Source of the DNA: a virus
Taxonomy: Duplodnaviria; Caudoviricetes
Virus record (IMG/VR): IMGVR_UViG_3300031673_000001
Direction: 5' to 3' (one strand)
DNA: 64,000 bases
Numbering within the stretch: the first letter of the stretch is position 1; each line of letters begins with the position of its first letter. Below the pieces are notes generated by a model that was not told where the DNA came from, ran no database searches, and saw nothing but the letters and a program-made list of their open reading frames with translations. Of the stretch, positions 6,608 to 57,961 are shown in pieces. A program made the position numbers and the translations under genes.

Positions 6608-6669
6608 GATTACCTCCTAATGATTGTGTCTTTATTTTTTGTTCTTATTATTTATTATAACATCCTAAA

Positions 6670-6683
6670 CTATATATATTAAT
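6670..6683 (+). promoter_or_regulatory. CTATATATATTAAT promoter-like motif, copy 1
   Basis: Exact 14-mer in the divergent intergenic region. It recurs at 39442, 41098, 53681 and 53849; every copy I found is intergenic. Confidence 0.65.
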
Positions 6684-6749
6684 TAATGATAATAAAACTA
6701 ATGTTCGAATTTTTTTAACAAATTATAAAAGGGAGGAAATATATATGAT

Positions 6750-39421: not shown

Positions 39422-39441
39422 TATCATTTAAAAAATCCTAT

Positions 39442-39455
39442 CTATATATATTAAT
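39442..39455 (+). promoter_or_regulatory. CTATATATATTAAT promoter-like motif, copy 2
   Basis: Exact copy in an intergenic region. Confidence 0.6.
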
Positions 39456-39536
39456 AATTGAAAAGGAAGATTTATAACTATTTTTTTGATTATTCCGATA
39501 TCATATGAAAGGAGAACTAATTTTTGAATTTCAGTT

Positions 39537-41087: not shown

Positions 41088-41097
41088 ACTCATTCGT

Positions 41098-41111
41098 CTA
41101 TATATATTAAT
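41098..41111 (+). promoter_or_regulatory. CTATATATATTAAT promoter-like motif, copy 3
   Basis: Exact copy about 30 nt upstream of the 41141 ORF. Confidence 0.6.
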
Positions 41112-41140
41112 TACCGAATAGGCAAAACAACTTTAACAAT

Positions 41141-50200: not shown

Positions 50201-51342
50201 CTTTATTAATAAAAACAGCAGGAGATATTGAAGAACTACTGGGTTATCAAGAACAGGAAGAAGAAGGAGTTGATGTATATGAAGGTCAAATTGTTATAAA
50301 AAGTCCAGGAGGACAAGTTGTTGATATTGAAGTATTCTCTAATCTTGATATAGATGATTTTCCTTCTATTAAAAAGTTAGTTAAAAGAACTAACTTAAGA
50401 CATAAAAAACCTGATAAAGATAAATATACAGATAGATCAATTTCAATTAAAGGAATATTAATTGTATTTAAAGTTGAACAAGAATTGAAAATTAGAGTGG
50501 GTGATAAACTCTGTAACAGATATGGAAATAAAGGAATTATTTCATTAATTGAAAAAGATAATTTAATGCCAAGAACACCTTGGGGTGAAACAGTTGATAT
50601 AATTATGAATCCTCTTGGAGTTACAGGTCGAATGAATATGGGGCAAATATACGAATTATACTGTGGTCTTATTTCTAAAGAAGTAGCAAAGAGAATGATA
50701 AAGTTGACCAGACCACAAGGAATTGCATTGATGAAATCTGTAATAACAAAACTTGATAATACAAAAGATAAGAAAATTAGCACATCATTAATTGCTTCCT
50801 TAACTAAAATGAGTGATGGAAAATATAAAGAAATGTTAAGTCAAGTTGAAAAGAATAAATTTATACCAATAGTTATTCCTCCATTTCAATCTCCTAATCA
50901 CAAAAGTATAGCGGAAGTATTAAAATTATTAAAACTAAAAACAGGATATAAATTAAAACTTCCAAAGTATAATACATTGACGCAAAATGAAGTTCCTTTT
51001 GGTTATGAATATGTTTCTAAATTAGAACATCTCGCAGATGCTAAATTACATGCAAGATCAACAGGACCAACAGCAGGAAAAGGAGGACAACCAACTGCTG
51101 GAAAAAGAAAAGAGGGTGGTCAAAAAATGGGTGAAGGTGATACATGGGCGTTAGCTTCTTATAATTGTCCAACAGTATTATCTGAATTTTTTGGTCCTAT
51201 GTCTGATGATTTTGCATCTAAAAATGAAATGTTATCAGAAATTATACAAACTGGAACAACAGATTTTAAGCAAACAAAAATGTCTCCAACTAGAGATCTA
51301 TTAAGTGCATATTTTATTTCATTGATGTTAGGAGGTCAATAA
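47278..51342 (+). CDS. rpoB: DNA-directed RNA polymerase beta subunit with long N-terminal extension
   Basis: FRVNGQRK, DTAEGGNIG, QGKQMLPL, YNFEDG, GDKLCNRYGNKG, MNPLGVTGRMNMGQ, KLEHL...HARS, GGQKMGEGD. Confidence 0.95.
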   Translation: MIKFQLLTQYTRVVDGVRFLKEKDKPFALFYFSENSTLYNDYPKMNLMRIDSKYVVVPITKIPVSRLTGDQRKIYKSFGLIPFQSNQAYPPNSNIIFDTSQYVSLIDQTYKPTTYRQRAGFLLNNFFYKSFNSLPNNYQKVLIYTVDINKPINSFINRKIFPILRNMKENEISFDHMLLGLVGETSTRYRLLVKDRNYKFARVTQYIRKIKMVDSDEEKEQDVESATNSFDEKDSKIKTAIQNYLNKNDKDLEKVSNDELDKTEKDRLTIASILYKVTGNYSKSQRLAKSIPDSNIKTAVQKISNLYRDDLLTGEKAVSLSESYIIQGMNVGKAVQNKTPEHIFDKRRIDFETNLKKDMSSAFKVLQKGNVPIKFNSIKVTSKISRPGELKKSDVAIVSISVTDAAGNEQIIEFEIPEIDPNSGTFRVNGQRKCLINQIVLTPISFPKPYDSKFESSYSKFHIYSRKTKRLSYLEAYMGSFRLPLMILLSYSFGFEETVKRVGIKYKIVQDRPEKDVVFTQVPSSYMIFEGLDTDLKREMVTSFTHSNISQYKNDKEFLSKDYFIDLIIQMTGRVDSTYLINNNIEYIVDPVSKQVLINQLLPYKLEDIMHYMASKAVEGYVQERNDIQYQRIRNSEILVHLAQKQFLKSYTEYKEQYLSGNKDAKFNFPPGSILGQFTNLEIVQNMEYANPVEEMATITKISPVGKTVGGVPDKEGLNLEARNVHRSYFGNIDPVDTAEGGNIGITQQLTVDAYLTSSRGLFGIKDLKNDEGSGILSTTLSMVPFIENNEGARLIMAGNQGKQMLPLKNPEPPIVQTGYESLLSNVLSDSFIKRSPCAGKVSSITNDFIEISCKENSKKKVDITPGQLKSGSGKNTLSTFRPTVTVGQSVKDKQVIAEGACISGGTISLGRNLATCYMPYEGYNFEDGLVINERLANDDKLTSLHGVDIEVKIDHKDRILHIIEMGAYTKKGEPLLIKTAGDIEELLGYQEQEEEGVDVYEGQIVIKSPGGQVVDIEVFSNLDIDDFPSIKKLVKRTNLRHKKPDKDKYTDRSISIKGILIVFKVEQELKIRVGDKLCNRYGNKGIISLIEKDNLMPRTPWGETVDIIMNPLGVTGRMNMGQIYELYCGLISKEVAKRMIKLTRPQGIALMKSVITKLDNTKDKKISTSLIASLTKMSDGKYKEMLSQVEKNKFIPIVIPPFQSPNHKSIAEVLKLLKLKTGYKLKLPKYNTLTQNEVPFGYEYVSKLEHLADAKLHARSTGPTAGKGGQPTAGKRKEGGQKMGEGDTWALASYNCPTVLSEFFGPMSDDFASKNEMLSEIIQTGTTDFKQTKMSPTRDLLSAYFISLMLGGQ

Positions 51343-52205
51343 TGAACTTATGTGAATATGGTTGTGGACAAGAAGCAAAATATAAAACATCTAATAACAG
51401 ACAATGTTGCAGTCCTAAATTTAATTCTTGTCCAGGAATAAGAAAAAGAAATTCAGAAACAAATAAAATAAAACAGTCAGGAAAAAATAATCCAATGTAT
51501 GGAAGAGAACAAACTATAGAATCTAAACTAAAAAATAGTGAGTCAAATAAAAAAGTTTGGAAAGATAAATCATCAACTTTTAATAATCCTCAATATAGAA
51601 AGAAATTAAAAAAAGCTTTGATAGAAGCATCCAAAAAAAGAAAAAGAACTATTAAAATGCTAAAAGAAAAATATACGCTATTTTCAAAAATTGAAGAAAT
51701 GAGATATAATCCAGATAAACCAAAAGAAAAAGAAATTCAAGTTCATTGTAAAAATCATAATTGTTCAAATTCAAAAGAACAGGGAGGTTGGTTTACACCA
51801 ACAAATATTCAACTATATGAAAGAATAAGAAATGTAGAACACCACGGATTAGATAACTCTTATTACTATTGTTCTCAAAAATGTAAAAATGAATGTCCAT
51901 TATTTAATTTACATTCTGATCCATTTAAAAATAATGAAATACCATATACATCACAAGAGTATCAAACTTTTAGAAATTTCGTTCTTGAAAGAGATGATTA
52001 TAAATGTCAGTATTGTGAAGATTTAGCAACAGATGTTCACCACGAAAGATCACAAAAATTAGAACCATTTTTTGCGCTTGATCCTAATTTAGCTTGGAGT
52101 TGTTGTGAGAAATGTCATTATACAAAAGGTCATAAAGATGAATGTTCAACTGGAGCTTTAGCTAATAGAATTTGTACAGATGGAGTCAATAATGAATGCT
52201 CCTAA
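51342..52205 (+). CDS. Free-standing HNH homing endonuclease
   Basis: CEYGCG, NPMYGR (NUMOD3-like), ERDDYKCQYC...VHHE...CCEKCH. Confidence 0.8.
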   Translation: MNLCEYGCGQEAKYKTSNNRQCCSPKFNSCPGIRKRNSETNKIKQSGKNNPMYGREQTIESKLKNSESNKKVWKDKSSTFNNPQYRKKLKKALIEASKKRKRTIKMLKEKYTLFSKIEEMRYNPDKPKEKEIQVHCKNHNCSNSKEQGGWFTPTNIQLYERIRNVEHHGLDNSYYYCSQKCKNECPLFNLHSDPFKNNEIPYTSQEYQTFRNFVLERDDYKCQYCEDLATDVHHERSQKLEPFFALDPNLAWSCCEKCHYTKGHKDECSTGALANRICTDGVNNECS

Positions 52206-52707
52206 CTACAAACAAATTGACTTATTAAGAAAAGCAGGTTTAAGACCTGAGGTTGTTGCTTATATTATTAGAGATGGAGAATTTCTATTAACATATTCCA
52301 AAGAACATGATCTCTGGTTTGTTCCTCAAGGTGGAATTGATAATAAAGAAACACCTGAAAAAGCATTATATAGAGAGCTTGGAGAGGAACTAGGAATAAA
52401 ATTACAAAAAAGTTTATATGGAAAACCTGAGTTAATACATTTAGATAAAATAATGTTTACAAGTGGAATTGGAAGCAGAGACTTAAGAACTGACTCTGGA
52501 GAGTCTGTAGTTATGAAAGGTAAATACTATTTACATTATGTAGTTCAATCTACTATTCAAGAAATAGATGTTAGAGATACCGAGTTTGATAAATTAATTT
52601 GGGTAGGAAAAGAGAAACTATATATTGTTCCAAAAATTATAAATGTATCCACAAAGAAAAATCAATTTATAAATGTAATGCCTAAATTGGAAAAATATCT
52701 AACATAG
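52180..52707 (+). CDS. NUDIX hydrolase
   Basis: Nudix box PQGGIDNKETPEKALYRELGEELG. Confidence 0.88.
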   Translation: MESIMNAPNYKQIDLLRKAGLRPEVVAYIIRDGEFLLTYSKEHDLWFVPQGGIDNKETPEKALYRELGEELGIKLQKSLYGKPELIHLDKIMFTSGIGSRDLRTDSGESVVMKGKYYLHYVVQSTIQEIDVRDTEFDKLIWVGKEKLYIVPKIINVSTKKNQFINVMPKLEKYLT

Positions 52708-52717
52708 GAGGTCAATA

Positions 52718-53311
52718 ATGAGCGGTTTAGAAGCTTTATGTGGCGATTCAATCATTCCACCTGAAATGGATAACTATGAAGAAGATGTTGATAAATACAA
52801 TGATGTTGCTAGTTTTAGATATTCCGCTCTTGATATAATAAACTCTGTTGGATTAGAAAATTTTAAAGAACTATATATGGTTCAAATTGATGTTGTTAAA
52901 AATGAAACTCTACATGCACAAAGAACATTTCTTATTGAAATGCAACAAAAGATAAGCGAAATATATGACTGGGAATTTTCTGATGAGTGGGGATTAGTTG
53001 ATACTACATATCAACAAGAACAATTATATAAATTTATAGAATTTCTTGAATTTGATAACTATTTATTTCTATCTTATGTTTGGAAATTTTTACTTGATGA
53101 TCCTTTAAAACTTATGAAGCTTAATATTAAAGAATTCTGTAAATTAAATGAAATGAGGATTATTAAAGAAACAGAAGAACAATTAGAAATACATTCTCAA
53201 AATCAATTAGTTAATATATTTTTAAAAACTTTTTATAAAGAGAAGTATATTGAATGGTTTATAAAGAATACAAGCAAAAATAAAACCGTTATTATTACTG
53301 AAATTATGTAG
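52718..53311 (+). CDS. Hypothetical protein
   Basis: 197-aa ORF with GGAGG RBS. Confidence 0.6.
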   Translation: MSGLEALCGDSIIPPEMDNYEEDVDKYNDVASFRYSALDIINSVGLENFKELYMVQIDVVKNETLHAQRTFLIEMQQKISEIYDWEFSDEWGLVDTTYQQEQLYKFIEFLEFDNYLFLSYVWKFLLDDPLKLMKLNIKEFCKLNEMRIIKETEEQLEIHSQNQLVNIFLKTFYKEKYIEWFIKNTSKNKTVIITEIM

Positions 53312-53403
53312 TAAAATTTAAGTTTCTAACTGACTAAAATTTTTAGTTGATTTAAAATTTTTTTAGAACAAAAAAATAAACTGAATTGTGAGAGGAGAGA
53401 AGA

Positions 53404-53661
53404 ATGGCAGAACCTATAATTAAAATTACGAAAGGTAATGTTGTTATAACAGGACCTAAATCTGAATTAGTTGAAGTATCCGAAACCCATGATGGTATAG
53501 CATTTAACTTCAAACGTGGTTTACAGGTGTATCAAGTTGAACAGTTCATGCCGACTCATATAAAACAACTTATCAAAAATACAACTGACTCATTTGAAGG
53601 AAATAATATTATTATAGATTTGGATAATGCTAGAAAACCTGTTATGGTTGATGCTACCTAA
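53404..53661 (+). CDS. Hypothetical protein
   Basis: 85-aa ORF with AGGAG RBS. Confidence 0.6.
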   Translation: MAEPIIKITKGNVVITGPKSELVEVSETHDGIAFNFKRGLQVYQVEQFMPTHIKQLIKNTTDSFEGNNIIIDLDNARKPVMVDAT

Positions 53662-53680
53662 TTCATTTTAAAGAAAATGT

Positions 53681-53694
53681 CTATATATATTAAT
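53681..53694 (+). promoter_or_regulatory. CTATATATATTAAT promoter-like motif, copy 4
   Basis: Exact copy upstream of RNA unit 1. Confidence 0.65.
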
Positions 53695-53730
53695 AAGTGA
53701 TAATATATGATTTGACTTATTTTTTTCAAT

Positions 53731-53829
53731 TTCTGGGAGGACTTGATATAATTTCAGAACTGTGTAATTACAGTGCCATTAAGGGGATTAAATTCCCTGA
53801 CATTAAATTACATCTTCTGCTTCCCAGAA
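53731..53829 (+). ncRNA. Array RNA unit 1 (type A)
   Basis: Terminal stem TTCTGGGAGG/CTTCCCAGAA, core ACTTGATATAATTTCAGAAC, and internal hairpins CTGTGTAATTACAG and GGGGATTAAATTCCCT. Confidence 0.65.
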
Positions 53830-53848
53830 AACATTTAAGAAAAAACAT

Positions 53849-53862
53849 CTATATATATTAAT
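53849..53862 (+). promoter_or_regulatory. CTATATATATTAAT promoter-like motif, copy 5
   Basis: Exact copy upstream of RNA unit 2. TTTGACTT follows, as in copy 4. Confidence 0.65.
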
Positions 53863-53895
53863 AGGTGTAATAAAAATTTGACTTGTATTTTTAGT

Positions 53896-54004
53896 TTCCA
53901 AGAAGACTTTATGTAATTTCAGAGCTGATTGGTTCAGCATCTTACTTGAAATGAGACGTGAGGGTTCGATTCCCTATTTTAGTTACATCTATTACTTCTT
54001 GGAA
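53896..54004 (+). ncRNA. Array RNA unit 2 (type A) with tRNA-like D, anticodon and T arms
   Basis: Stems TTCCAAGAAG/CTTCTTGGAA and ATGTAA/TTACAT. Arms GCTG-ATTGGTT-CAGC, TCTTA-CTTGAAA-TGAGA and AGGG-TTCGATT-CCCT. Confidence 0.75.
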
Positions 54005-54015
54005 TCATTTTTATT

Positions 54016-54086
54016 TGGGGACAATAAAGAGAATTAACTTAATACAAGCGTTGGCCCGCCCGGATTAAATTAGTTCTCTGTCCCCA
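54016..54086 (+). ncRNA. Array RNA unit 3 (type B)
   Basis: TGGGGACA/TGTCCCCA and GAGAATTA/TAGTTCTC stems around a GC-rich loop. Confidence 0.55.
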
Positions 54087-54094
54087 CCAATTTT

Positions 54095-54177
54095 AGATGA
54101 GAAGACTTTATGTAGTTTCAGAAAAAATACAATTGGCGTATTCACTATCTACATATTTTTAATAATACTTCTCATCT
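54095..54177 (+). ncRNA. Array RNA unit 4 (type A)
   Basis: AGATGAGAAG/CTTCTCATCT and ATGTAG/CTACAT stems. Core ACTTTATGTAGTTTCAGA. Confidence 0.65.
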
Positions 54178-54184
54178 TTACTTT

Positions 54185-54248
54185 TTCAAAAGACTTTATG
54201 TAATTTCAGAACCGATTGAGTTAATGACTTACATATGCTTCTTTTGAA
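54185..54248 (+). ncRNA. Array RNA unit 5 (type A)
   Basis: TTCAAAAG/CTTTTGAA and ATGTAA/TTACAT stems. Shares 21 identical nt (AAGACTTTATGTAATTTCAGA) with unit 2. Confidence 0.65.
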
Positions 54249-54254
54249 TACATC

Positions 54255-54330
54255 TTGTGAGGACACTGGGTATAACAATTTCAATATCATTCGGGGATCA
54301 TTGTTAATTATACTGATATTGTCCTCACAA
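54255..54330 (+). ncRNA. Array RNA unit 6 (type B)
   Basis: 11-bp TTGTGAGGACA/TGTCCTCACAA plus GTATAA/TTATAC and AACAAT/ATTGTT stems. Confidence 0.55.
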
Positions 54331-54335
54331 TCTTT

Positions 54336-54394
54336 AATGGACTGAGTGTGATTTCAGAACTCGCAGAGAAGTTTCAATTACACTCAACTCCATT
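54336..54394 (+). ncRNA. Array RNA unit 7 (type A)
   Basis: AATGGA/TCCATT and GAGTGTGATT/AATTACACTC stems, followed by TCAGAAC. Confidence 0.6.
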
Positions 54395-54490
54395 TTTTTG
54401 AAAGGAAAGTAATGAAATTCCTTAAACCAAAAATATTAGATATCATTGCTTTACGTTGGTTGTTAAAAACTAAAATAAAGGAGAAGCTAA

Positions 54491-56014
54491 ATGCCAATAG
54501 GGGAACTGGGAATCATTGATTCGGGAATTTTACAATTCGCCCCGAAGGGAGCTTATTATGAAGAAAAGGATGAACAATATCAAGCAGTTAAAAACATGTG
54601 GATGCAATTATTAGATTACGACAGAACCTTATTCTCTTTAGTAATGTTATTAAATGGCACTGGTTTCTCTAAAGGAGCTATGAGTCACATCCTATTATCA
54701 AATAGTATAAAGAATGTGAATAATCTACCAGCAATTACAGATGGATTACCAGAAGAATTTGAAAAGGAGATTATTAGATATAATCTCTATAAAGAGAGAA
54801 CACCAAGAGCATTGAAAAATCTATTAATGTTGGCAGGGGAAGAAGGACATAAAAAAATAAATAATTCAAAAACCAGAAAAATTATTTTGGAGTTCATCTT
54901 CAATCGAGATAATAAAAGTCTTGATTATCTTGCTGTAAATTATAAGATTAAACTTCAAAAACTAATTAAACATGCTCTTGGAAAGCAAGATCTCTATAAA
55001 ATTTTAAATGGAAGCAATAGTGATACTATATTTAGAAAAAATATTGGCAGATACAATAATCATTCTTTTCCAGTTGTATGCCATATATTCAATAAACCTA
55101 TTCCTTCCGGAACTTTCTTTCCAATGATTCAAAAGTATTATGAACTCAAAGATGCAGCAAAAATTGGAAATCTTGTTGAATTTAGAAAGCATATGAAAGG
55201 TTTTCCAGAAAGAACCGTTATGGGAATGAGAAATTTATATAAACTTGATATTCCCATATCTGATATAAAGAATGATACCCAGAAATCAGAGAAAGATAAA
55301 ATTCAAGGAATAGCAGCAGCAAAACGAGCTGGTGCAAAGAAAGTAGATATTAATTATAAAAAACAAGATATCTATGATCTATTCAAGCTTCTATATTTTA
55401 AACTCAACACTAAAGATGAAGAGGATGTTGATAAAATAATAGAAGCAATGGATTATGTTACAGATAATATGATCAAACTTGATATTGGAGAGTGTATAGT
55501 TATTATGGATGCCTCTCATTCAATGTTTGGAAGTGAAGAAAGACCAATGCATCCATTTTTAACTGGACTGTGCATTATTGCAAACCTCGACAATGTAAAA
55601 GATATAATATATGTTGGAGGACAAGCAATTAAATTTTCAACAATTAATCCAGGAGTTATAATACCAAAGAATTATACAGATCTCTGGAGAGCATTAATTA
55701 AAGCAGTCTCAAAAGGTGTTGAAAATATAGTTATTATTTCTGATGGTTATGAAAATTCTATTAAAGGGATGTTCGGGCACGTATATAAGCATTTGAAGGA
55801 GACAGGATATAATTTTAAATTAACACATCTCAATCCTGTATTTTCAGCTGGATCCTTAACAGGAACCTCAATAAGATTAACAGAGGATGTTAGACCATTT
55901 CCAGTTGGAGATTATAAGTTTCTTGAAACTGAAATAATCTTTTCTAAACTTATCGAAGATAAAGATATGGTTAGAAAATTATTAATATCAAAATATAAAA
56001 GTCTGATTCAATGA
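54491..56014 (+). CDS. TROVE/Ro60-like protein with C-terminal vWA domain
   Basis: Helical N-terminal region. The vWA MIDAS motifs IVIMDASHSMFG and VIISDGYEN are clear; the TROVE relationship is inferred from architecture and context. Confidence 0.55.
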   Translation: MPIGELGIIDSGILQFAPKGAYYEEKDEQYQAVKNMWMQLLDYDRTLFSLVMLLNGTGFSKGAMSHILLSNSIKNVNNLPAITDGLPEEFEKEIIRYNLYKERTPRALKNLLMLAGEEGHKKINNSKTRKIILEFIFNRDNKSLDYLAVNYKIKLQKLIKHALGKQDLYKILNGSNSDTIFRKNIGRYNNHSFPVVCHIFNKPIPSGTFFPMIQKYYELKDAAKIGNLVEFRKHMKGFPERTVMGMRNLYKLDIPISDIKNDTQKSEKDKIQGIAAAKRAGAKKVDINYKKQDIYDLFKLLYFKLNTKDEEDVDKIIEAMDYVTDNMIKLDIGECIVIMDASHSMFGSEERPMHPFLTGLCIIANLDNVKDIIYVGGQAIKFSTINPGVIIPKNYTDLWRALIKAVSKGVENIVIISDGYENSIKGMFGHVYKHLKETGYNFKLTHLNPVFSAGSLTGTSIRLTEDVRPFPVGDYKFLETEIIFSKLIEDKDMVRKLLISKYKSLIQ

Positions 56015-56023
56015 GGAGAACTT

Positions 56024-56992
56024 ATGTCAATTTTTAGAATATTAAAATTTTCAGATGAAGATATTGGAGCTGGAAGTATTCAGGGTGTAGATGAAATGAC
56101 AGTGGTGCCTCTCATTGGTGAAAATCTAGGTAATGTAGCAGAACCACTTTCATTAAAATTCAAACGAACGGATAGTTATGGTTCCATGGTATATGAAAAT
56201 ACAGATAAGGAACTATCCGGAATTATTCCTACAAACATAATGGTTAGAGGATTTAATGCTCAAGATCATGCAATGGCAGGTTCAGGAATAATTACAGCAA
56301 ATAAAACAACAAAATTCACTAATGCATGCTGTATTGAATCAGGTCAGGGAGGATATCTACAAGATAAAGGTAATGATTATGATATCTTACCAATTGAGCT
56401 TCGTAAAAATCTCTTACCATTAAAAATGAGAGACAAGAATAGATATGATAAATTATGGCCAGACATTTCAAAATGGTTAGCTGGCACAGGAGTTTCTAAA
56501 TCAATAATGCAGTCACATTTAAGATATTTCTATGATAATCCTCAAATAAAGGAATCTCTTGAAGAGTTTTCTGCTTCCTTTGAACCAGTATCTAATCAGA
56601 TTGGAGCTGTCATATTATTTAAAGACAAAGTTGTTGGAATAGAAATTATGCCAAGTGTTCAACATTGGGAAAGTTATTGGAAGTTATTAATTCGAGGATG
56701 TTACGGCGCCGAGTTATTGAGACTTAAAAAACTTGGCAAAATTAATTCATCTCTTAAACTACCAAAATTTAAGAAGGGTGATAAGGTGGAACATCTAGAA
56801 CTAATTGTTGATAATTTTTTACATGATATTAGAAAAGATATTTTACAAATAATAGATAATATTAAAATAAAAAATGCCTCAATATTAAATAAAATTGAGA
56901 ATTTTGAAACTATATTAATAGAAACAGATTCAGGTGGTGGGGATCTTATAACTCAAGATAAAAAACCTATATATCTTTCACTGGTTCTCTAA
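56024..56992 (+). CDS. ARPP/DUF6569-like protein
   Basis: QGVDEMTVVPL, AQDHAM, ACCIESGQGG, FEPVSNQIGAVI, GIEIMPS. Family recalled from memory, not searched. Confidence 0.5.
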   Translation: MSIFRILKFSDEDIGAGSIQGVDEMTVVPLIGENLGNVAEPLSLKFKRTDSYGSMVYENTDKELSGIIPTNIMVRGFNAQDHAMAGSGIITANKTTKFTNACCIESGQGGYLQDKGNDYDILPIELRKNLLPLKMRDKNRYDKLWPDISKWLAGTGVSKSIMQSHLRYFYDNPQIKESLEEFSASFEPVSNQIGAVILFKDKVVGIEIMPSVQHWESYWKLLIRGCYGAELLRLKKLGKINSSLKLPKFKKGDKVEHLELIVDNFLHDIRKDILQIIDNIKIKNASILNKIENFETILIETDSGGGDLITQDKKPIYLSLVL

Positions 56993-56993
56993 T

Positions 56994-57164
56994 ATGAATC
57001 AGCAAGATCTTGAGCATTTAGTCAAAAAAGTAAGGAGAAGGTTGGTAGCAATTTTCCAAAATCCAGCAACATCTCCTAGCATTATTGTTAAAGTTGCAAA
57101 AATTTGTAGTATTAAGATTCCACTTGAAGTTGAAAAACATTATTATGGTTCTGACGAACCCTAA
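56994..57164 (+). CDS. 56-aa hypothetical protein
   Basis: Translated by hand (MNQQDLEHLVKKVRRRL...GSDEP). Starts 1 nt after the upstream stop. Confidence 0.5.
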   Translation: MNQQDLEHLVKKVRRRLVAIFQNPATSPSIIVKVAKICSIKIPLEVEKHYYGSDEP

Positions 57165-57172
57165 AAGATACT

Positions 57173-57289
57173 CGCCCCTGCTATTACGATAGCTTGTGGA
57201 AGATGCTTTTAGTTTTTGATCTTAGTTATTTAATTAACTAGGATTGAGACTAATAGTATCTTCCACAAGCTACCGTAATAGCAGGGGCG
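57173..57289 (+). ncRNA. Long intergenic RNA hairpin
   Basis: CGCCCCTGCTATTACG-A-TAGCTTGTGGAAGAT pairs with ATCTTCCACAAGCTA-C-CGTAATAGCAGGGGCG. The inner stem has several G-U pairs on the + strand. Confidence 0.6.
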
Positions 57290-57343
57290 TATATATCACC
57301 TTACTTTTTGTTGTCTAAACTTTTTTTGATGAGAGGTTAATTA

Positions 57344-57961
57344 ATGGTAAAACTATCTTTAATTTCTGTTCCAGGGGATAGATATATGAGAAGAGTATCA
57401 GCAGAAAGATACATAGAGCAATTAGGAGCAGAAGTTTATCCCATTGCACTTATTAAGTTTCTATTAAATAAAAAAAGAATTATGAATTATTTCTCAAAAG
57501 CGGCAAGTAAAAATTTCAATCCAAAATTTAAATTTGACTTAAAAACAGATGAATGTAAAGAATGTCAACAAAAGAGAGACCAAGGAATGTTTTGTCGTCA
57601 GCATACATCAATTCAAAGAGTATTAAATGCTGATGAAGTAATGTATGATCTAGATACATATACCTACATATATCAAAATGAAATTTATCGAATGGTGGGA
57701 AATAAATTAGTTATTGTTTACTGTCCACATACAAAATTAATTTCAGGAGGAATTACAGATTCAAAAGTTAGAAAAATAAATCCTATAACAGTTGAAGATC
57801 CAGATTTAGAAGATCTTCCAGAATATAATAAAGTTCATAAATTTATATCATCACAATTATTAGATCGATATATGTCTTGCTGGTTTGATAATGAATTTTC
57901 AATTGTAACAATACCGATGGATAGAGATGGTCAAAATTGGTGCTTATTTCCAAACAGATAA
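57344..57961 (+). CDS. Hypothetical protein with putative Zn site
   Basis: CKEC...FCRQH. Confidence 0.6.
   Translation: MVKLSLISVPGDRYMRRVSAERYIEQLGAEVYPIALIKFLLNKKRIMNYFSKAASKNFNPKFKFDLKTDECKECQQKRDQGMFCRQHTSIQRVLNADEVMYDLDTYTYIYQNEIYRMVGNKLVIVYCPHTKLISGGITDSKVRKINPITVEDPDLEDLPEYNKVHKFISSQLLDRYMSCWFDNEFSIVTIPMDRDGQNWCLFPNR

What the first reader, a model, noticed from the sequence alone, without database searches (positions are those of the whole stretch)
53681..56992. Polycistronic array of seven structured RNAs feeding a TROVE/Ro60-like vWA gene and an ARPP-like gene
Seen: about 830 nt without a long ORF, holding two copies of the promoter motif and seven closed stem-loops. Units 2-7 are separated by only 5-11 pyrimidine-rich nt. 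Five units share one architecture: a terminal helix ending G(A/G)AC, an internal loop, an ATGTAA/TTACAT-type helix and an unpaired TTTCAGA, enclosing a different insert each time. Compensatory changes occur between units (ATGTAG/CTACAT, GAGTGTGATT/AATTACACTC, different terminal stems), which supports RNA structure. Established: Ro60/Rsr binds Y RNAs encoded next to it, where a constant stem binds Ro and a variable module recruits partners. Inference: a modular phage ribonucleoprotein system with one scaffold protein and an expandable set of adaptor or decoy RNAs, possibly counter-defence or RNA repair. This is the best candidate for an undescribed system here.
Basis: partly seen in the sequence, partly recalled or inferred. 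Interest (0 to 1): 0.9.

Follow-up and report, generated by a model that had tools for sequence, protein, structure and literature searches.

The report
Phage Ro60-like protein with Y-RNA array
A large uncultured phage carries seven tandem small structured RNAs, five built on one shared "handle" (one of them also displays a tRNA look-alike), just upstream of a very diverged Ro60-type ring protein and an enzyme-like ARPP partner: a new, widespread branch of the known Ro60/Y-RNA machines, not a wholly new system.

Summary
Window 53681-54490 has no ORF and folds into seven closed stem-loops (z -9.8). A covariance model built from related loci finds exactly five handle-bearing units in the 64 kb, all on the + strand inside this array. 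The handle is: outer stem, invariant GACU, covarying second helix, invariant UUCAG. The inserts differ; unit 2 is a tRNA mimic without an acceptor stem.

The 507-aa protein matches no sequence family. Its confident model aligns over its full length to solved Ro60 structures only (Z 12-15), and it keeps an invariant MIDAS DxSxS. The 322-aa protein is Pfam ARPP-1.

In 69 related metagenomic loci, 246 of 249 handle matches lie between the same upstream gene and the Ro60-like gene (1-6 per array). Members too distant to align in DNA show the same arrangement.

A complex prediction places ARPP on the MIDAS face of the vWA domain (0.61 against 0.00 for controls).

Most likely this is a phage Ro60/Y-RNA-type ribonucleoprotein, a new variant of a known kind (Rsr-YrlA; Thermus phage phiLo Ro60-Yrl). 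Transcription, processing, RNA binding and biological role are inferred, not shown. This scan has met the same module before in at least five other genomes.

The parts
53680..53695 (+). Promoter-type motif, copy 1 (TCTATATATATTAATA)
   Evidence: Exact 16-mer. The same motif lies at 39441 (exact), 41097 (1 mismatch) and 6669 (2 mismatches), all on the + strand and, by the ORF list, between ORFs. The motif also starts the arrays in L001, L003 and L017. Promoter function is inferred.
53733..53827 (+). Unit 1: handle RNA with a two-hairpin insert
   Evidence: R1 hit 36.9 bits, E 2.5e-7; not in the model's seed. Fold z -3.3. Absent, together with promoter copy 1, from the closest relative L017.
53848..53863 (+). 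Promoter-type motif, copy 2
   Evidence: Exact 16-mer. Aligns with the single promoter motif of L017.
53895..54005 (+). Unit 2: handle RNA carrying a tRNA-like module (D arm, anticodon-type arm, T arm; no acceptor stem)
   Evidence: R1 hit 45.5 bits, E 1.2e-9; not in the seed. The Rfam tRNA model matches positions 9-63 at 53923-53975 with 25 bits, below the gathering score of 29. ARAGORN calls no tRNA. Fold. Nearly identical in L017 apart from the anticodon-loop region.
54018..54084 (+). Unit 3: closed hairpin without the handle (variable slot)
   Evidence: Fold z -4.0; not matched by R1. At the same position L017 has DNA with almost no identity to unit 3.
54095..54177 (+). Unit 4: handle RNA with a single-hairpin insert
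   Evidence: R1 hit 33.8 bits, E 1.7e-6; not in the seed. Fold z -3.4. The handle is conserved and the insert diverged relative to L017.
54186..54247 (+). Unit 5: minimal handle RNA
   Evidence: R1 hit 52.8 bits, E 1.3e-11; a seed member. Fold z -3.9.
54257..54328 (+). Unit 6: second RNA class, a long hairpin with an invariant apical UUCGGGG(A/U)UC
   Evidence: Fold z -4.0. The same core with a changed basal stem is found in six other distinct arrays.
54334..54399 (+). Unit 7: minimal handle RNA followed by a run of seven U (54393-54399)
   Evidence: R1 hit 42.9 bits, E 6e-9; a seed member. Fold z -4.3. A U-run after the last unit is seen in several related loci, among them L005, L017, L018 and L020, and after the last unit of distant L098.
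54429..54459 (+). Conserved linear motif in the leader of the Ro60-like gene (A-run, TTRGATAT, 6-8 nt, TACGTYG)
   Evidence: Conserved in 22 aligned leaders, with no conserved pairing. Not repeated elsewhere in the window. A short upstream ORF overlaps it but in different frames in different loci. Role unknown.
54491..56014 (+). Ro60-like protein, 507 aa: helical ring plus C-terminal vWA domain with MIDAS
   Evidence: No Pfam, NCBIfam, PHROG or PDB-sequence hit. AF2 model pLDDT 84, pTM 0.80. The ten best PDB matches are all Ro60/TROVE over the full length (Foldseek E 1.5e-5 to 5e-4; VIA Z 12.3-15.0, about 405 residues aligned). D340, S342, S344 and S417-N422 are invariant in 42 homologues.
56024..56992 (+). 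ARPP-1 protein, 322 aa, the constant partner gene
   Evidence: Pfam PF20208, 73.5 bits against a cut-off of 27, E 2.5e-20. tblastn finds a homologue in 92 of 97 sequences (96 loci plus the window). C102, C103 and Q108 are invariant. Predicted to dock on the vWA MIDAS face. No solved fold resembles it.

Best explanation
This is a phage-encoded ribonucleoprotein system of the Ro60/Y-RNA type. Shown: the noncoding stretch encodes seven closed stem-loop RNAs. Five of them share a handle made of an outer stem that ends in an invariant G-A-C-U, an asymmetric internal loop, a second covarying helix and an invariant U-U-C-A-G junction. Each handle carries a different insert, and unit 2 carries a tRNA-elbow mimic. 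Shown: the adjacent 507-aa protein has the Ro60 architecture (helical ring plus vWA/MIDAS), and the next gene is an ARPP-1 protein. Shown: RNA handle, Ro60-like gene and ARPP gene travel together across a large, deeply diverged family. Inferred: the array is transcribed from one or two phage promoters and cut in the U-rich spacers into RNAs of about 55-110 nt. The handle docks on the Ro60-like ring, as the conserved stem of Y RNAs docks on Ro60. The variable inserts act as adaptors or decoys that bring tRNA-binding or other RNA-handling factors to the ring, or gate access to it. ARPP, held on the MIDAS face of the vWA domain, supplies an enzymatic activity on RNA or ribose-linked groups. The likely role is RNA surveillance or repair, or counter-defence during infection.
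For: RNA structure: fold z -9.8 for the array and -2.9 to -4.3 per unit. All 14 handle pairs covary, 91.5% paired against 64% shuffled and 34-44% slid. G-U pairs are present, which fits an RNA read from the + strand. Specificity: R1 finds only the five units in 64 kb. In 69 related loci 248 of 249 hits are on the + strand and 246 lie between the 85-aa gene and the Ro60-like gene; there are 1-6 per array (mean 3.8) with a median spacer of 16.5 nt. Near-invariant handle positions: G7 A8 C9 U10, U20 U21 C22, G24. Protein: the ten best structural matches are all Ro60/TROVE over the full length. BFVD and AFDB matches include named Ro-like and TROVE proteins. MIDAS is invariant. Deep co-occurrence: a profile search finds 441 clusters. 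Distant member L098 has at least five GAGACUU...UACAG units with T-arms upstream, seen by reading the sequence. L100 has one unit plus ARPP. The 462-kb phage LR756500.1 has the Ro60-like/ARPP pair and a handle-like stem around a tRNA-like module 1.4 kb upstream. tRNA mimicry rather than decoding: the units that ARAGORN calls as tRNA in 20 of the 32 loci scanned carry 13 different anticodons, several starting with A and one reading a stop codon. Partner docking: ipSAE 0.61 against a best control of 0.00; a mark reached by 58 of 80 solved complexes and 2 of 110 mismatched pairs; runs agree on at least 89% of contacts; partner pLDDT at least 86. The interface covers S342-S344 and 418-427 of the vWA domain and residues 18-23, 181-189 and 244-266 of ARPP. 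Precedents: Rsr-YrlA in more than 250 bacteria and phages (PMC4201824); phiLo Ro60 binds two upstream Yrl RNAs and host PNPase (PMC12135203); Bas63 gp130, Ro60-like by structure, counters the ppl defence (bioRxiv 10.1101/2024.10.10.617714).
Against: There is no sequence-level link to TROVE: neither the protein, nor its 42-sequence profile, nor ten distant relatives hit TROVE or any Ro60 chain. Homology therefore rests on fold, with moderate TM of about 0.46. The handle lacks the Ro-binding motifs of known Y RNAs (GNCGAA, GGUCCGA). Two of the seven units lack the handle. No expression data exist for this uncultured phage. The complex prediction used my own alignments, so its calibration holds only roughly, and it does not show binding. 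The selection of seed units from RNAfold domains favours paired stems, although the alignment itself was made on sequence alone.
Confidence: 0.8

Rival explanations
1. The stem-loops are a cis-acting leader of the Ro60-like/ARPP mRNA, for example autoregulatory binding sites, attenuators or stabilisers, and are not released as independent small RNAs.
For: All units lie on the same strand directly upstream of the genes. A U-run follows the last unit, and a conserved leader motif lies between it and the start codon. No small-RNA data are available.
Against: Arrays hold 1-6 interchangeable units whose inserts diverge fast. In L087 and L093 a unit lies downstream of the Ro60-like gene instead. In LR756500.1 the only handle-like unit is 1.4 kb away, beyond other ORFs. 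tRNA-like modules with intact D-loop GG and T-loop UUC point to trans-acting mimics, as in YrlA (PMC4201824).
Confidence: 0.1
2. The units are degenerate phage tRNA genes, or tRNA-derived decoys against host tRNA-targeting nucleases, that work independently of the neighbouring protein. The adjacency reflects only shared regulation.
For: ARAGORN calls a tRNA inside one unit in 20 of the 32 loci scanned. Unit 2 scores 25 bits with the Rfam tRNA model.
Against: About three quarters of the units have no T-loop-like motif yet keep the same handle (53 of 246 have one). The called anticodons are diverse and mostly implausible. The handle tracks the Ro60-like gene even in relatives too distant to align in DNA.
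Confidence: 0.06
3. The repeats act at the DNA level (replication, packaging or recombination sites, or plain terminators), and the RNA folds are incidental.
For: It is an AT-rich intergenic region with many inverted repeats. Terminator-like U-runs follow some stems.
Against: Pairing is kept through G-U pairs and compensatory changes, while loop and junction bases are strand-specific invariants. 248 of 249 hits are on the strand of the genes. Modules copy tRNA D, anticodon and T arms.
Confidence: 0.03

Closest known systems
Bacterial Ro60 (Rsr) with YrlA/YrlB Y RNAs (Salmonella rsr-yrlBA-rtcBA; D. radiodurans Rsr-Yrn1-PNPase; Chen et al. 2014, PMC4201824)
   Same: A ring-plus-vWA protein is encoded next to small RNAs. 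Their 5' and 3' ends pair into a conserved stem and they carry a variable module. At least one RNA mimics tRNA, and several Y RNAs per locus occur.
   Different: The protein is not recognised by the TROVE profile. The handle motif is GACU...UUCAG rather than GNCGAA. [quoted passage not shown] Arrays have up to six handle units. The constant partner is ARPP-1 rather than RtcB/RtcA.
Thermus phage phiLo Ro60 with Yrl1/Yrl2 (PDB 9KOP, 9L5Y; PMC12135203)
   Same: A phage Ro60 with Y-like RNA genes directly upstream. It is the best structural match to this protein (Z 15.0, 401 residues aligned, rmsd 5.8 A).
   Different: phiLo has two RNAs with a CGAA motif, and no ARPP partner is reported. Here there are five handle RNAs plus two others, a different motif, 14% identity and no sequence-level similarity.
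Bas63 gp130, a Felix O1-type phage protein similar to Ro60 by structure (bioRxiv 10.1101/2024.10.10.617714)
   Same: A phage protein recognised as Ro60-like only by structure and placed beside tRNA-type genes. It is reported to counter a host defence (ppl), which gives experimental precedent for a counter-defence role.
   Different: No detectable sequence similarity to this family (the tblastn search of the phage collection found only LR756500.1). Its RNA partners were only suggested, and no ARPP partner is described.
ARPP in ARG-centred conflict systems (Iyer et al. 2022, PMC9503650)
   Same: The same Pfam family (PF20208) with the conserved Cys and Gln that suggested an enzyme acting on ribose-containing groups.
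   Different: That paper lists ARPP with ADP-ribosylglycohydrolase and phosphatase systems, HIRAN, WYL regulators and deacetylases, not with a Ro60-like protein or structured RNAs.

Membership tests
Ro60 / TROVE (Pfam PF05731) | Sequence match to the TROVE domain profile or to solved Ro60 chains | tested here: not met
   No Pfam hit even at E 10. No PDB sequence hit with the protein or with the 42-sequence profile. Ten distant relatives also lack TROVE.
Ro60 / TROVE (Pfam PF05731) | Architecture: N-terminal helical-repeat ring followed by a vWA domain | tested here: met
   AF2 model pLDDT 84. The ten best PDB matches are all Ro60/TROVE over about 405 residues, Z 12.3-15.0, above the vWA-only rows at Z 11.6 or less. 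Foldseek probability 1.00.
Ro60 / TROVE (Pfam PF05731) | MIDAS motif (DxSxS plus downstream Thr/Asp) in the vWA domain | tested here: met
   D340, S342, S344, T358 and D418 are invariant in 42 homologues.
Ro60 / TROVE (Pfam PF05731) | Binds Y RNA on the outer surface and misfolded RNA ends in the central hole | not testable with these tools
   Needs EMSA, RIP-seq or a structure.
Y RNA / YrlA-type RNA | Encoded next to the Ro60 gene, with 5' and 3' ends paired into a conserved stem that has an internal loop | tested here: met
   Five units here; 246 of 249 model hits lie just upstream of the gene in 69 loci; both helices covary.
Y RNA / YrlA-type RNA | Ro-binding sequence motif GNCGAA(N)G (bacteria) or GGUCCGA (animals) | tested here: not met
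   The invariant handle bases are G-A-C-U and U-U-C-(A)-G. No Rfam family other than a sub-threshold tRNA hit matched the array.
Y RNA / YrlA-type RNA | At least one RNA per locus with a tRNA-like domain | tested here: met
   Unit 2 has D, anticodon-type and T arms. 39 of 60 complete arrays have a unit with a T-loop motif.
Y RNA / YrlA-type RNA | YrlA topology: T arm before D arm, with the acceptor-type stem-loop between them | tested here: not met
   In the 29 T-loop units where a D-like arm was recognised, D precedes T. The T-loop sits at about 62% of unit length.
ARPP-1 (Pfam PF20208) | Profile match above the gathering score, with the conserved Cys and Gln | tested here: met
   73.5 bits against 27. 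C102, C103 and Q108 are invariant in 32 homologues.
tRNA | Complete cloverleaf with acceptor stem, and a conserved plausible anticodon | tested here: not met
   ARAGORN finds none in the window. Rfam tRNA scores 25 bits, below 29, and covers model positions 9-63 only. Called anticodons in related loci differ widely and many are implausible.

The most novel reading that the evidence does not exclude
The Ro60-like ring and ARPP form a stable heterodimer through the MIDAS site. This would give the long-unexplained vWA/MIDAS domain of Ro60-family proteins a job as an enzyme dock. The tandem handle RNAs would be interchangeable adaptors that programme this enzyme: tRNA-mimic and other fast-evolving modules would steer it to damaged or chemically tagged RNAs, or decoy host tRNA-targeting defences. 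The result would be a modular RNA-guided counter-defence or repair particle that phages expand by adding units.
Probability: 0.2. Interest if true: 0.85.

Novelty: new variant of a known kind. Interest (0 to 1): 0.68.

Why it matters
Ro60/Y-RNA particles are conserved from bacteria to humans, and Ro60 is a major autoantigen. Yet the role of the vWA/MIDAS domain and the logic of Y-RNA modules are still unclear. This locus belongs to a large family (441 clusters at 50% identity) that sequence annotation misses entirely. It offers natural experiments: up to six adaptor RNAs on one handle, rapid turnover of the variable modules, and a fixed enzyme-like partner predicted to sit on the MIDAS face. 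The RNA handle has no match in Rfam and the protein family no match in Pfam, so models for both would annotate many phage genomes. One phage protein that is Ro60-like by structure is already reported to counter a defence system, so this family is a reasonable place to look for RNA-based counter-defence.

Tried and rejected
- Sequence searches for the 507-aa protein found no family: Pfam to E 10, NCBIfam, PHROGs, PDB sequences with the protein and with its profile.
- DNA search of the phage collection with the locus found no match.
- No whole genome is held for this window.
- Sequencing runs: 20 DNA holders were listed (soil, sediment and aquatic metagenomes). No RNA holder was listed for either query, so transcription could not be examined and read laying was not used.
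- Rfam at E 10 over 53000-57500 gave only a sub-threshold tRNA hit in the array. The microRNA-family hits at 57173-57290 reflect a generic long hairpin.
- My two ad hoc scaffold parsers missed or merged units, so I replaced them with the covariance model.
- A small ORF in the leader (start at 54412) was considered. I rejected it as the reason for conservation, because the conserved bases fall in different frames in different loci. No conserved structure was found there either, and the leader motif is not a general promoter of this phage.
- R1 found nothing in the whole 462-kb record LR756500.1 and nothing significant in L098. Handle-like units are visible there by eye, so the model does not reach the most distant members.
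- ARPP fold searches found no Foldseek PDB match at E 0.001 or better. The best VIA Z was 5.9, over 42 residues only.
- A search for permuted tRNA-like modules in this family found none.
- The sigma-70 promoter and terminator scan was not above shuffles.
- The downstream AAA ATPase was considered as a MoxR-type partner of the vWA domain. It resembles a clamp loader or PHROG ATPase and sits beside GyrB, so I dropped the idea.


Full report
**Setting.** The window looks like part of a large uncultured phage. The window's own Ro60-like protein is recorded on contigs up to 238 kb, and relatives on contigs up to 304 kb. The gene order is conserved: an RNA-polymerase beta-like gene (1354 aa), small genes, an 85-aa gene, a gene-free gap, a 507-aa gene and an ARPP-1 gene. 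DNA search of the phage collection finds nothing. The only isolate-level relatives of the polymerase are distant jumbo phages. No whole genome is held.

**The observation.**
- The 829-nt gap (53662-54490) has no ORF of 60 aa or more.
- Region 53735-54400 folds into seven closed domains, far better than shuffles (z -9.8). Each unit alone folds at z -2.9 to -4.3.
- The exact 16-mer TCTATATATATTAATA lies at 53680 and 53848. It recurs at three other + strand sites that lie between ORFs (39441; 41097 with 1 mismatch; 6669 with 2), so it is a plausible phage promoter.
- Units 1, 2, 4, 5 and 7 share one plan: an outer stem ending in G-A-C, a U-rich 5' loop, a second helix of the AUGUAA/UUACAU type, and an unpaired UUUCAGA. 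The inserts differ.
- Units 3 and 6 are closed hairpins without this plan.

**Is the shared plan real?**
- I took short closed domains from the equivalent gaps of related loci, plus units 5 and 7 of this window, and aligned 43 of them by sequence alone.
- RNAalifold recovered the two helices. All 14 pairs show double compensatory changes.
- 91.5% of cells are paired, against 64% after shuffling partners and 34-44% after sliding them. There are 188 double-change cells against 54 expected.
- One caveat: the seed units were picked as RNAfold domains, which favours pairing. Even so, the helices fall at fixed positions relative to sequence motifs that the aligner used.
- The resulting model R1 finds exactly five hits in the 64-kb window on both strands, all in the array. 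Three of them (units 1, 2 and 4) were not in the seed. The next hit has E 0.22.

**Comparative evidence.**
- The protein has more than 249 close homologues, all metagenomic and unnamed. I fetched 96 loci.
- In about 70 loci where both flanking genes are present, the gap is 439-1371 nt.
- tblastn finds an ARPP homologue in 92 of 97 sequences, counting the window.
- R1 gives 249 hits at E 0.01 or better in 69 distinct loci. 248 are on the gene strand, and 246 lie between the 85-aa gene and the Ro60-like gene.
- Arrays hold 1-6 handle units (mean 3.8), units are 52-135 nt long, and the median spacer is 16.5 nt.
- Near-invariant bases are G7 A8 C9 U10, U20 U21 C22 and G24, plus A, A and C on the 3' side.
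- Against the closest relative (L017, 80% protein identity), the handles, unit 2, the apex of unit 6, unit 7 and the leader are conserved.
- In the same comparison the inserts of units 4 and 5 have diverged and the unit-3 position shares almost no sequence. The window's first promoter plus unit 1 are simply absent. So arrays gain units and the variable parts turn over quickly.

**tRNA mimicry.**
- Unit 2 has a D arm with the GG loop, a 5-bp anticodon-type arm with a 7-nt loop, and a T arm with UUCGAUU. Seven unpaired bases on each side separate this module from the handle helix, and there is no acceptor stem.
- Rfam tRNA gives 25 bits for model positions 9-63 only. ARAGORN calls nothing.
- In 20 of the 32 loci scanned, ARAGORN does call a tRNA inside one unit. 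The anticodons differ widely (ATG, TTA, GAT, ATC, AAT, ATA, TTG, TGA, ACG, ACT, TCG and others), and several are not used by bacteria. These are mimics, not decoders.
- 53 of 246 distinct units carry a T-loop motif, and 39 of 60 complete arrays have at least one. Where a D-like arm was recognised it precedes the T arm. This differs from the permuted YrlA described by Chen et al. (PMC4201824).

**The protein.**
- No sequence method recognises it.
- With a 42-sequence alignment, AlphaFold2 gives pLDDT 84 and pTM 0.80: about 330 helical residues followed by an alpha/beta domain.
- Foldseek's ten best PDB matches are all Ro60/TROVE entries aligned over the full length: phiLo Ro60, Xenopus, human and Deinococcus (E 1.5e-5 to 5e-4, probability 1.00).
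- VIA-align gives Z 12.3-15.0 over about 405 residues for those ten, above the vWA-only matches at Z 11.6 or less.
- Viral and AFDB libraries add named Ro-like and TROVE proteins, and two unnamed cellular proteins at TM 0.63-0.74.
- The MIDAS residues (D340, S342, S344, T358, D418) are invariant.
- TM of about 0.46 is moderate and the helical part could in principle converge. I therefore call it Ro60-like by architecture, not a demonstrated TROVE member.

**A large hidden family.**
- A profile search of 1.84 billion representatives finds 441 clusters at E 0.001 or better, and 317 at 1e-10 or better. None of ten sampled has a TROVE hit.
- Three distant members were inspected.
- L098 (E 4e-47) has a sigma-70-type promoter followed by at least five units of the form stem-GAGACUU-helix-UACAG, read by eye from the sequence. 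Several carry T arms, and the run ends in a U-tract just before the gene.
- L100 has one unit (R1 20 bits) behind a promoter, and an ARPP-1 gene two genes downstream.
- The 462-kb phage LR756500.1 has the Ro60-like gene (27% identity) followed by ARPP (30% identity). A tRNA-Leu-like module enclosed in a handle-like stem lies 1.4 kb upstream.
- R1 itself does not reach these distant units.
- The three-part association therefore persists far beyond alignable DNA. This is the strongest argument that protein and handle work together.

**ARPP.**
- The 322-aa protein is Pfam ARPP-1, with invariant C102, C103 and Q108.
- This agrees with the conserved Cys and Gln that led Iyer et al. (PMC9503650) to propose an enzyme acting on ribose-containing groups. 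That paper does not list a Ro60-like or RNA context.
- Its model is confident (pLDDT 90), but no solved fold resembles it.
- The complex prediction supports binding but does not show it. The score is 0.61 against a best control of 0.00. That mark was reached by 58 of 80 solved complexes and 2 of 110 mismatched pairs; the counts hold only roughly because my own alignments were used. The runs agree on at least 89% of contacts, and the partner's pLDDT is at least 86.
- The interface is the MIDAS face of the vWA domain (S342-S344, 394-407, 418-440) against ARPP 18-23, 181-189 and 244-266. Nearly invariant E24 lies next to the first segment. No like complex is known to me.

**How it probably works.**
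- Shown: the anatomy, the covariation, the fold and the co-occurrence.
- Inferred: transcription from the phage promoter motifs, and cleavage in the U-rich spacers.
- Inferred: docking of the handle on the ring, by analogy with Y RNA on Ro60, with the variable modules acting as adaptors or decoys.
- Inferred: ARPP as an enzyme held at MIDAS.
- The U-run after unit 7 is shared by several related loci, such as L005, L017, L018 and L020, and by distant L098. It may end small-RNA transcription, so 'polycistronic with the genes' remains open.
- A role in RNA surveillance, repair or counter-defence rests on precedent. phiLo Ro60 with its Yrl RNAs binds host PNPase (PMC12135203). Bas63 gp130, Ro60-like by structure, counters the ppl defence (bioRxiv 10.1101/2024.10.10.617714).

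**Comparison and novelty.**
- Phage Ro60 with adjacent Y-like RNAs is known, so this is not a new kind of system.
- Five things are new in this branch: a protein family invisible to the Pfam, NCBIfam and PHROG models; a different handle motif with no match in Rfam; arrays of up to six handle RNAs plus a second RNA class (unit 6 type); tRNA mimics in natural arm order; and the constant ARPP partner with a predicted MIDAS contact.
- Full-text searches found no paper that links ARPP with TROVE or Ro60.
- This scan has already reported the same module in at least five other genomes. My tests here were made independently of those notes and agree with them.

Noticed in passing
window 57168-57294: A long near-perfect hairpin (46-nt arms, 89% complementary, 35-nt apex) lies downstream of ARPP and a 56-aa ORF. 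A similar hairpin with a shared CUUGUGG...GCUUUUAGU core and changed bases on both arms lies at the same place in L005 and L017, and a shorter one in L003. The Rfam microRNA hits there only reflect a long hairpin. It could be a terminator, an RNase III site or another RNA component of the module.
   Followed up: partly
window 54429-54459, and the leaders of 21 related loci: A strongly conserved linear motif (A-run, TTRGATAT, 6-8 nt, TACGTYG) lies between the last RNA unit and the ribosome-binding site of the Ro60-like gene. There is no conserved pairing and no consistent reading frame, although most loci have a short upstream ORF with its own Shine-Dalgarno sequence (window start at 54412). 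It may be a protein-binding or regulatory site.
   Followed up: partly
L087 4508-4569 and L093 4508-4568: In a more divergent subgroup (43-45% identity) a handle unit lies between the Ro60-like gene and the ARPP gene instead of upstream.
   Followed up: no
L097 (LR756500.1) 1300-1425: In a 462-kb uncultured phage, a tRNA-Leu(UAA) call by ARAGORN is enclosed in an 11-bp outer stem, with a GAGAACU...UACAGAA stretch that resembles the handle. It lies 1.4 kb upstream of a distant Ro60-like/ARPP gene pair.
   Followed up: partly
window 39441-39456, 41097-41112, 6669-6684: Further copies of the promoter-type 16-mer TCTATATATATTAATA (0, 1 and 2 mismatches) on the + strand, at positions that fall between ORFs in the ORF list.
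   Followed up: no
window 51342-52707: An HNH-endonuclease-like gene and a NUDIX hydrolase gene lie between the RNA-polymerase beta-like gene and the locus. They are not present at this position in L001 or L003.
   Followed up: no
window 54257-54328 and six other loci (e.g. L005 2764-2830, L007 2345-2406): Unit 6 represents a second recurring RNA type: a long hairpin with an invariant UUCGGGG(A/U)UC apex and a basal stem that changes between loci. Only seven examples were collected, by a narrow pattern search.
   Followed up: partly
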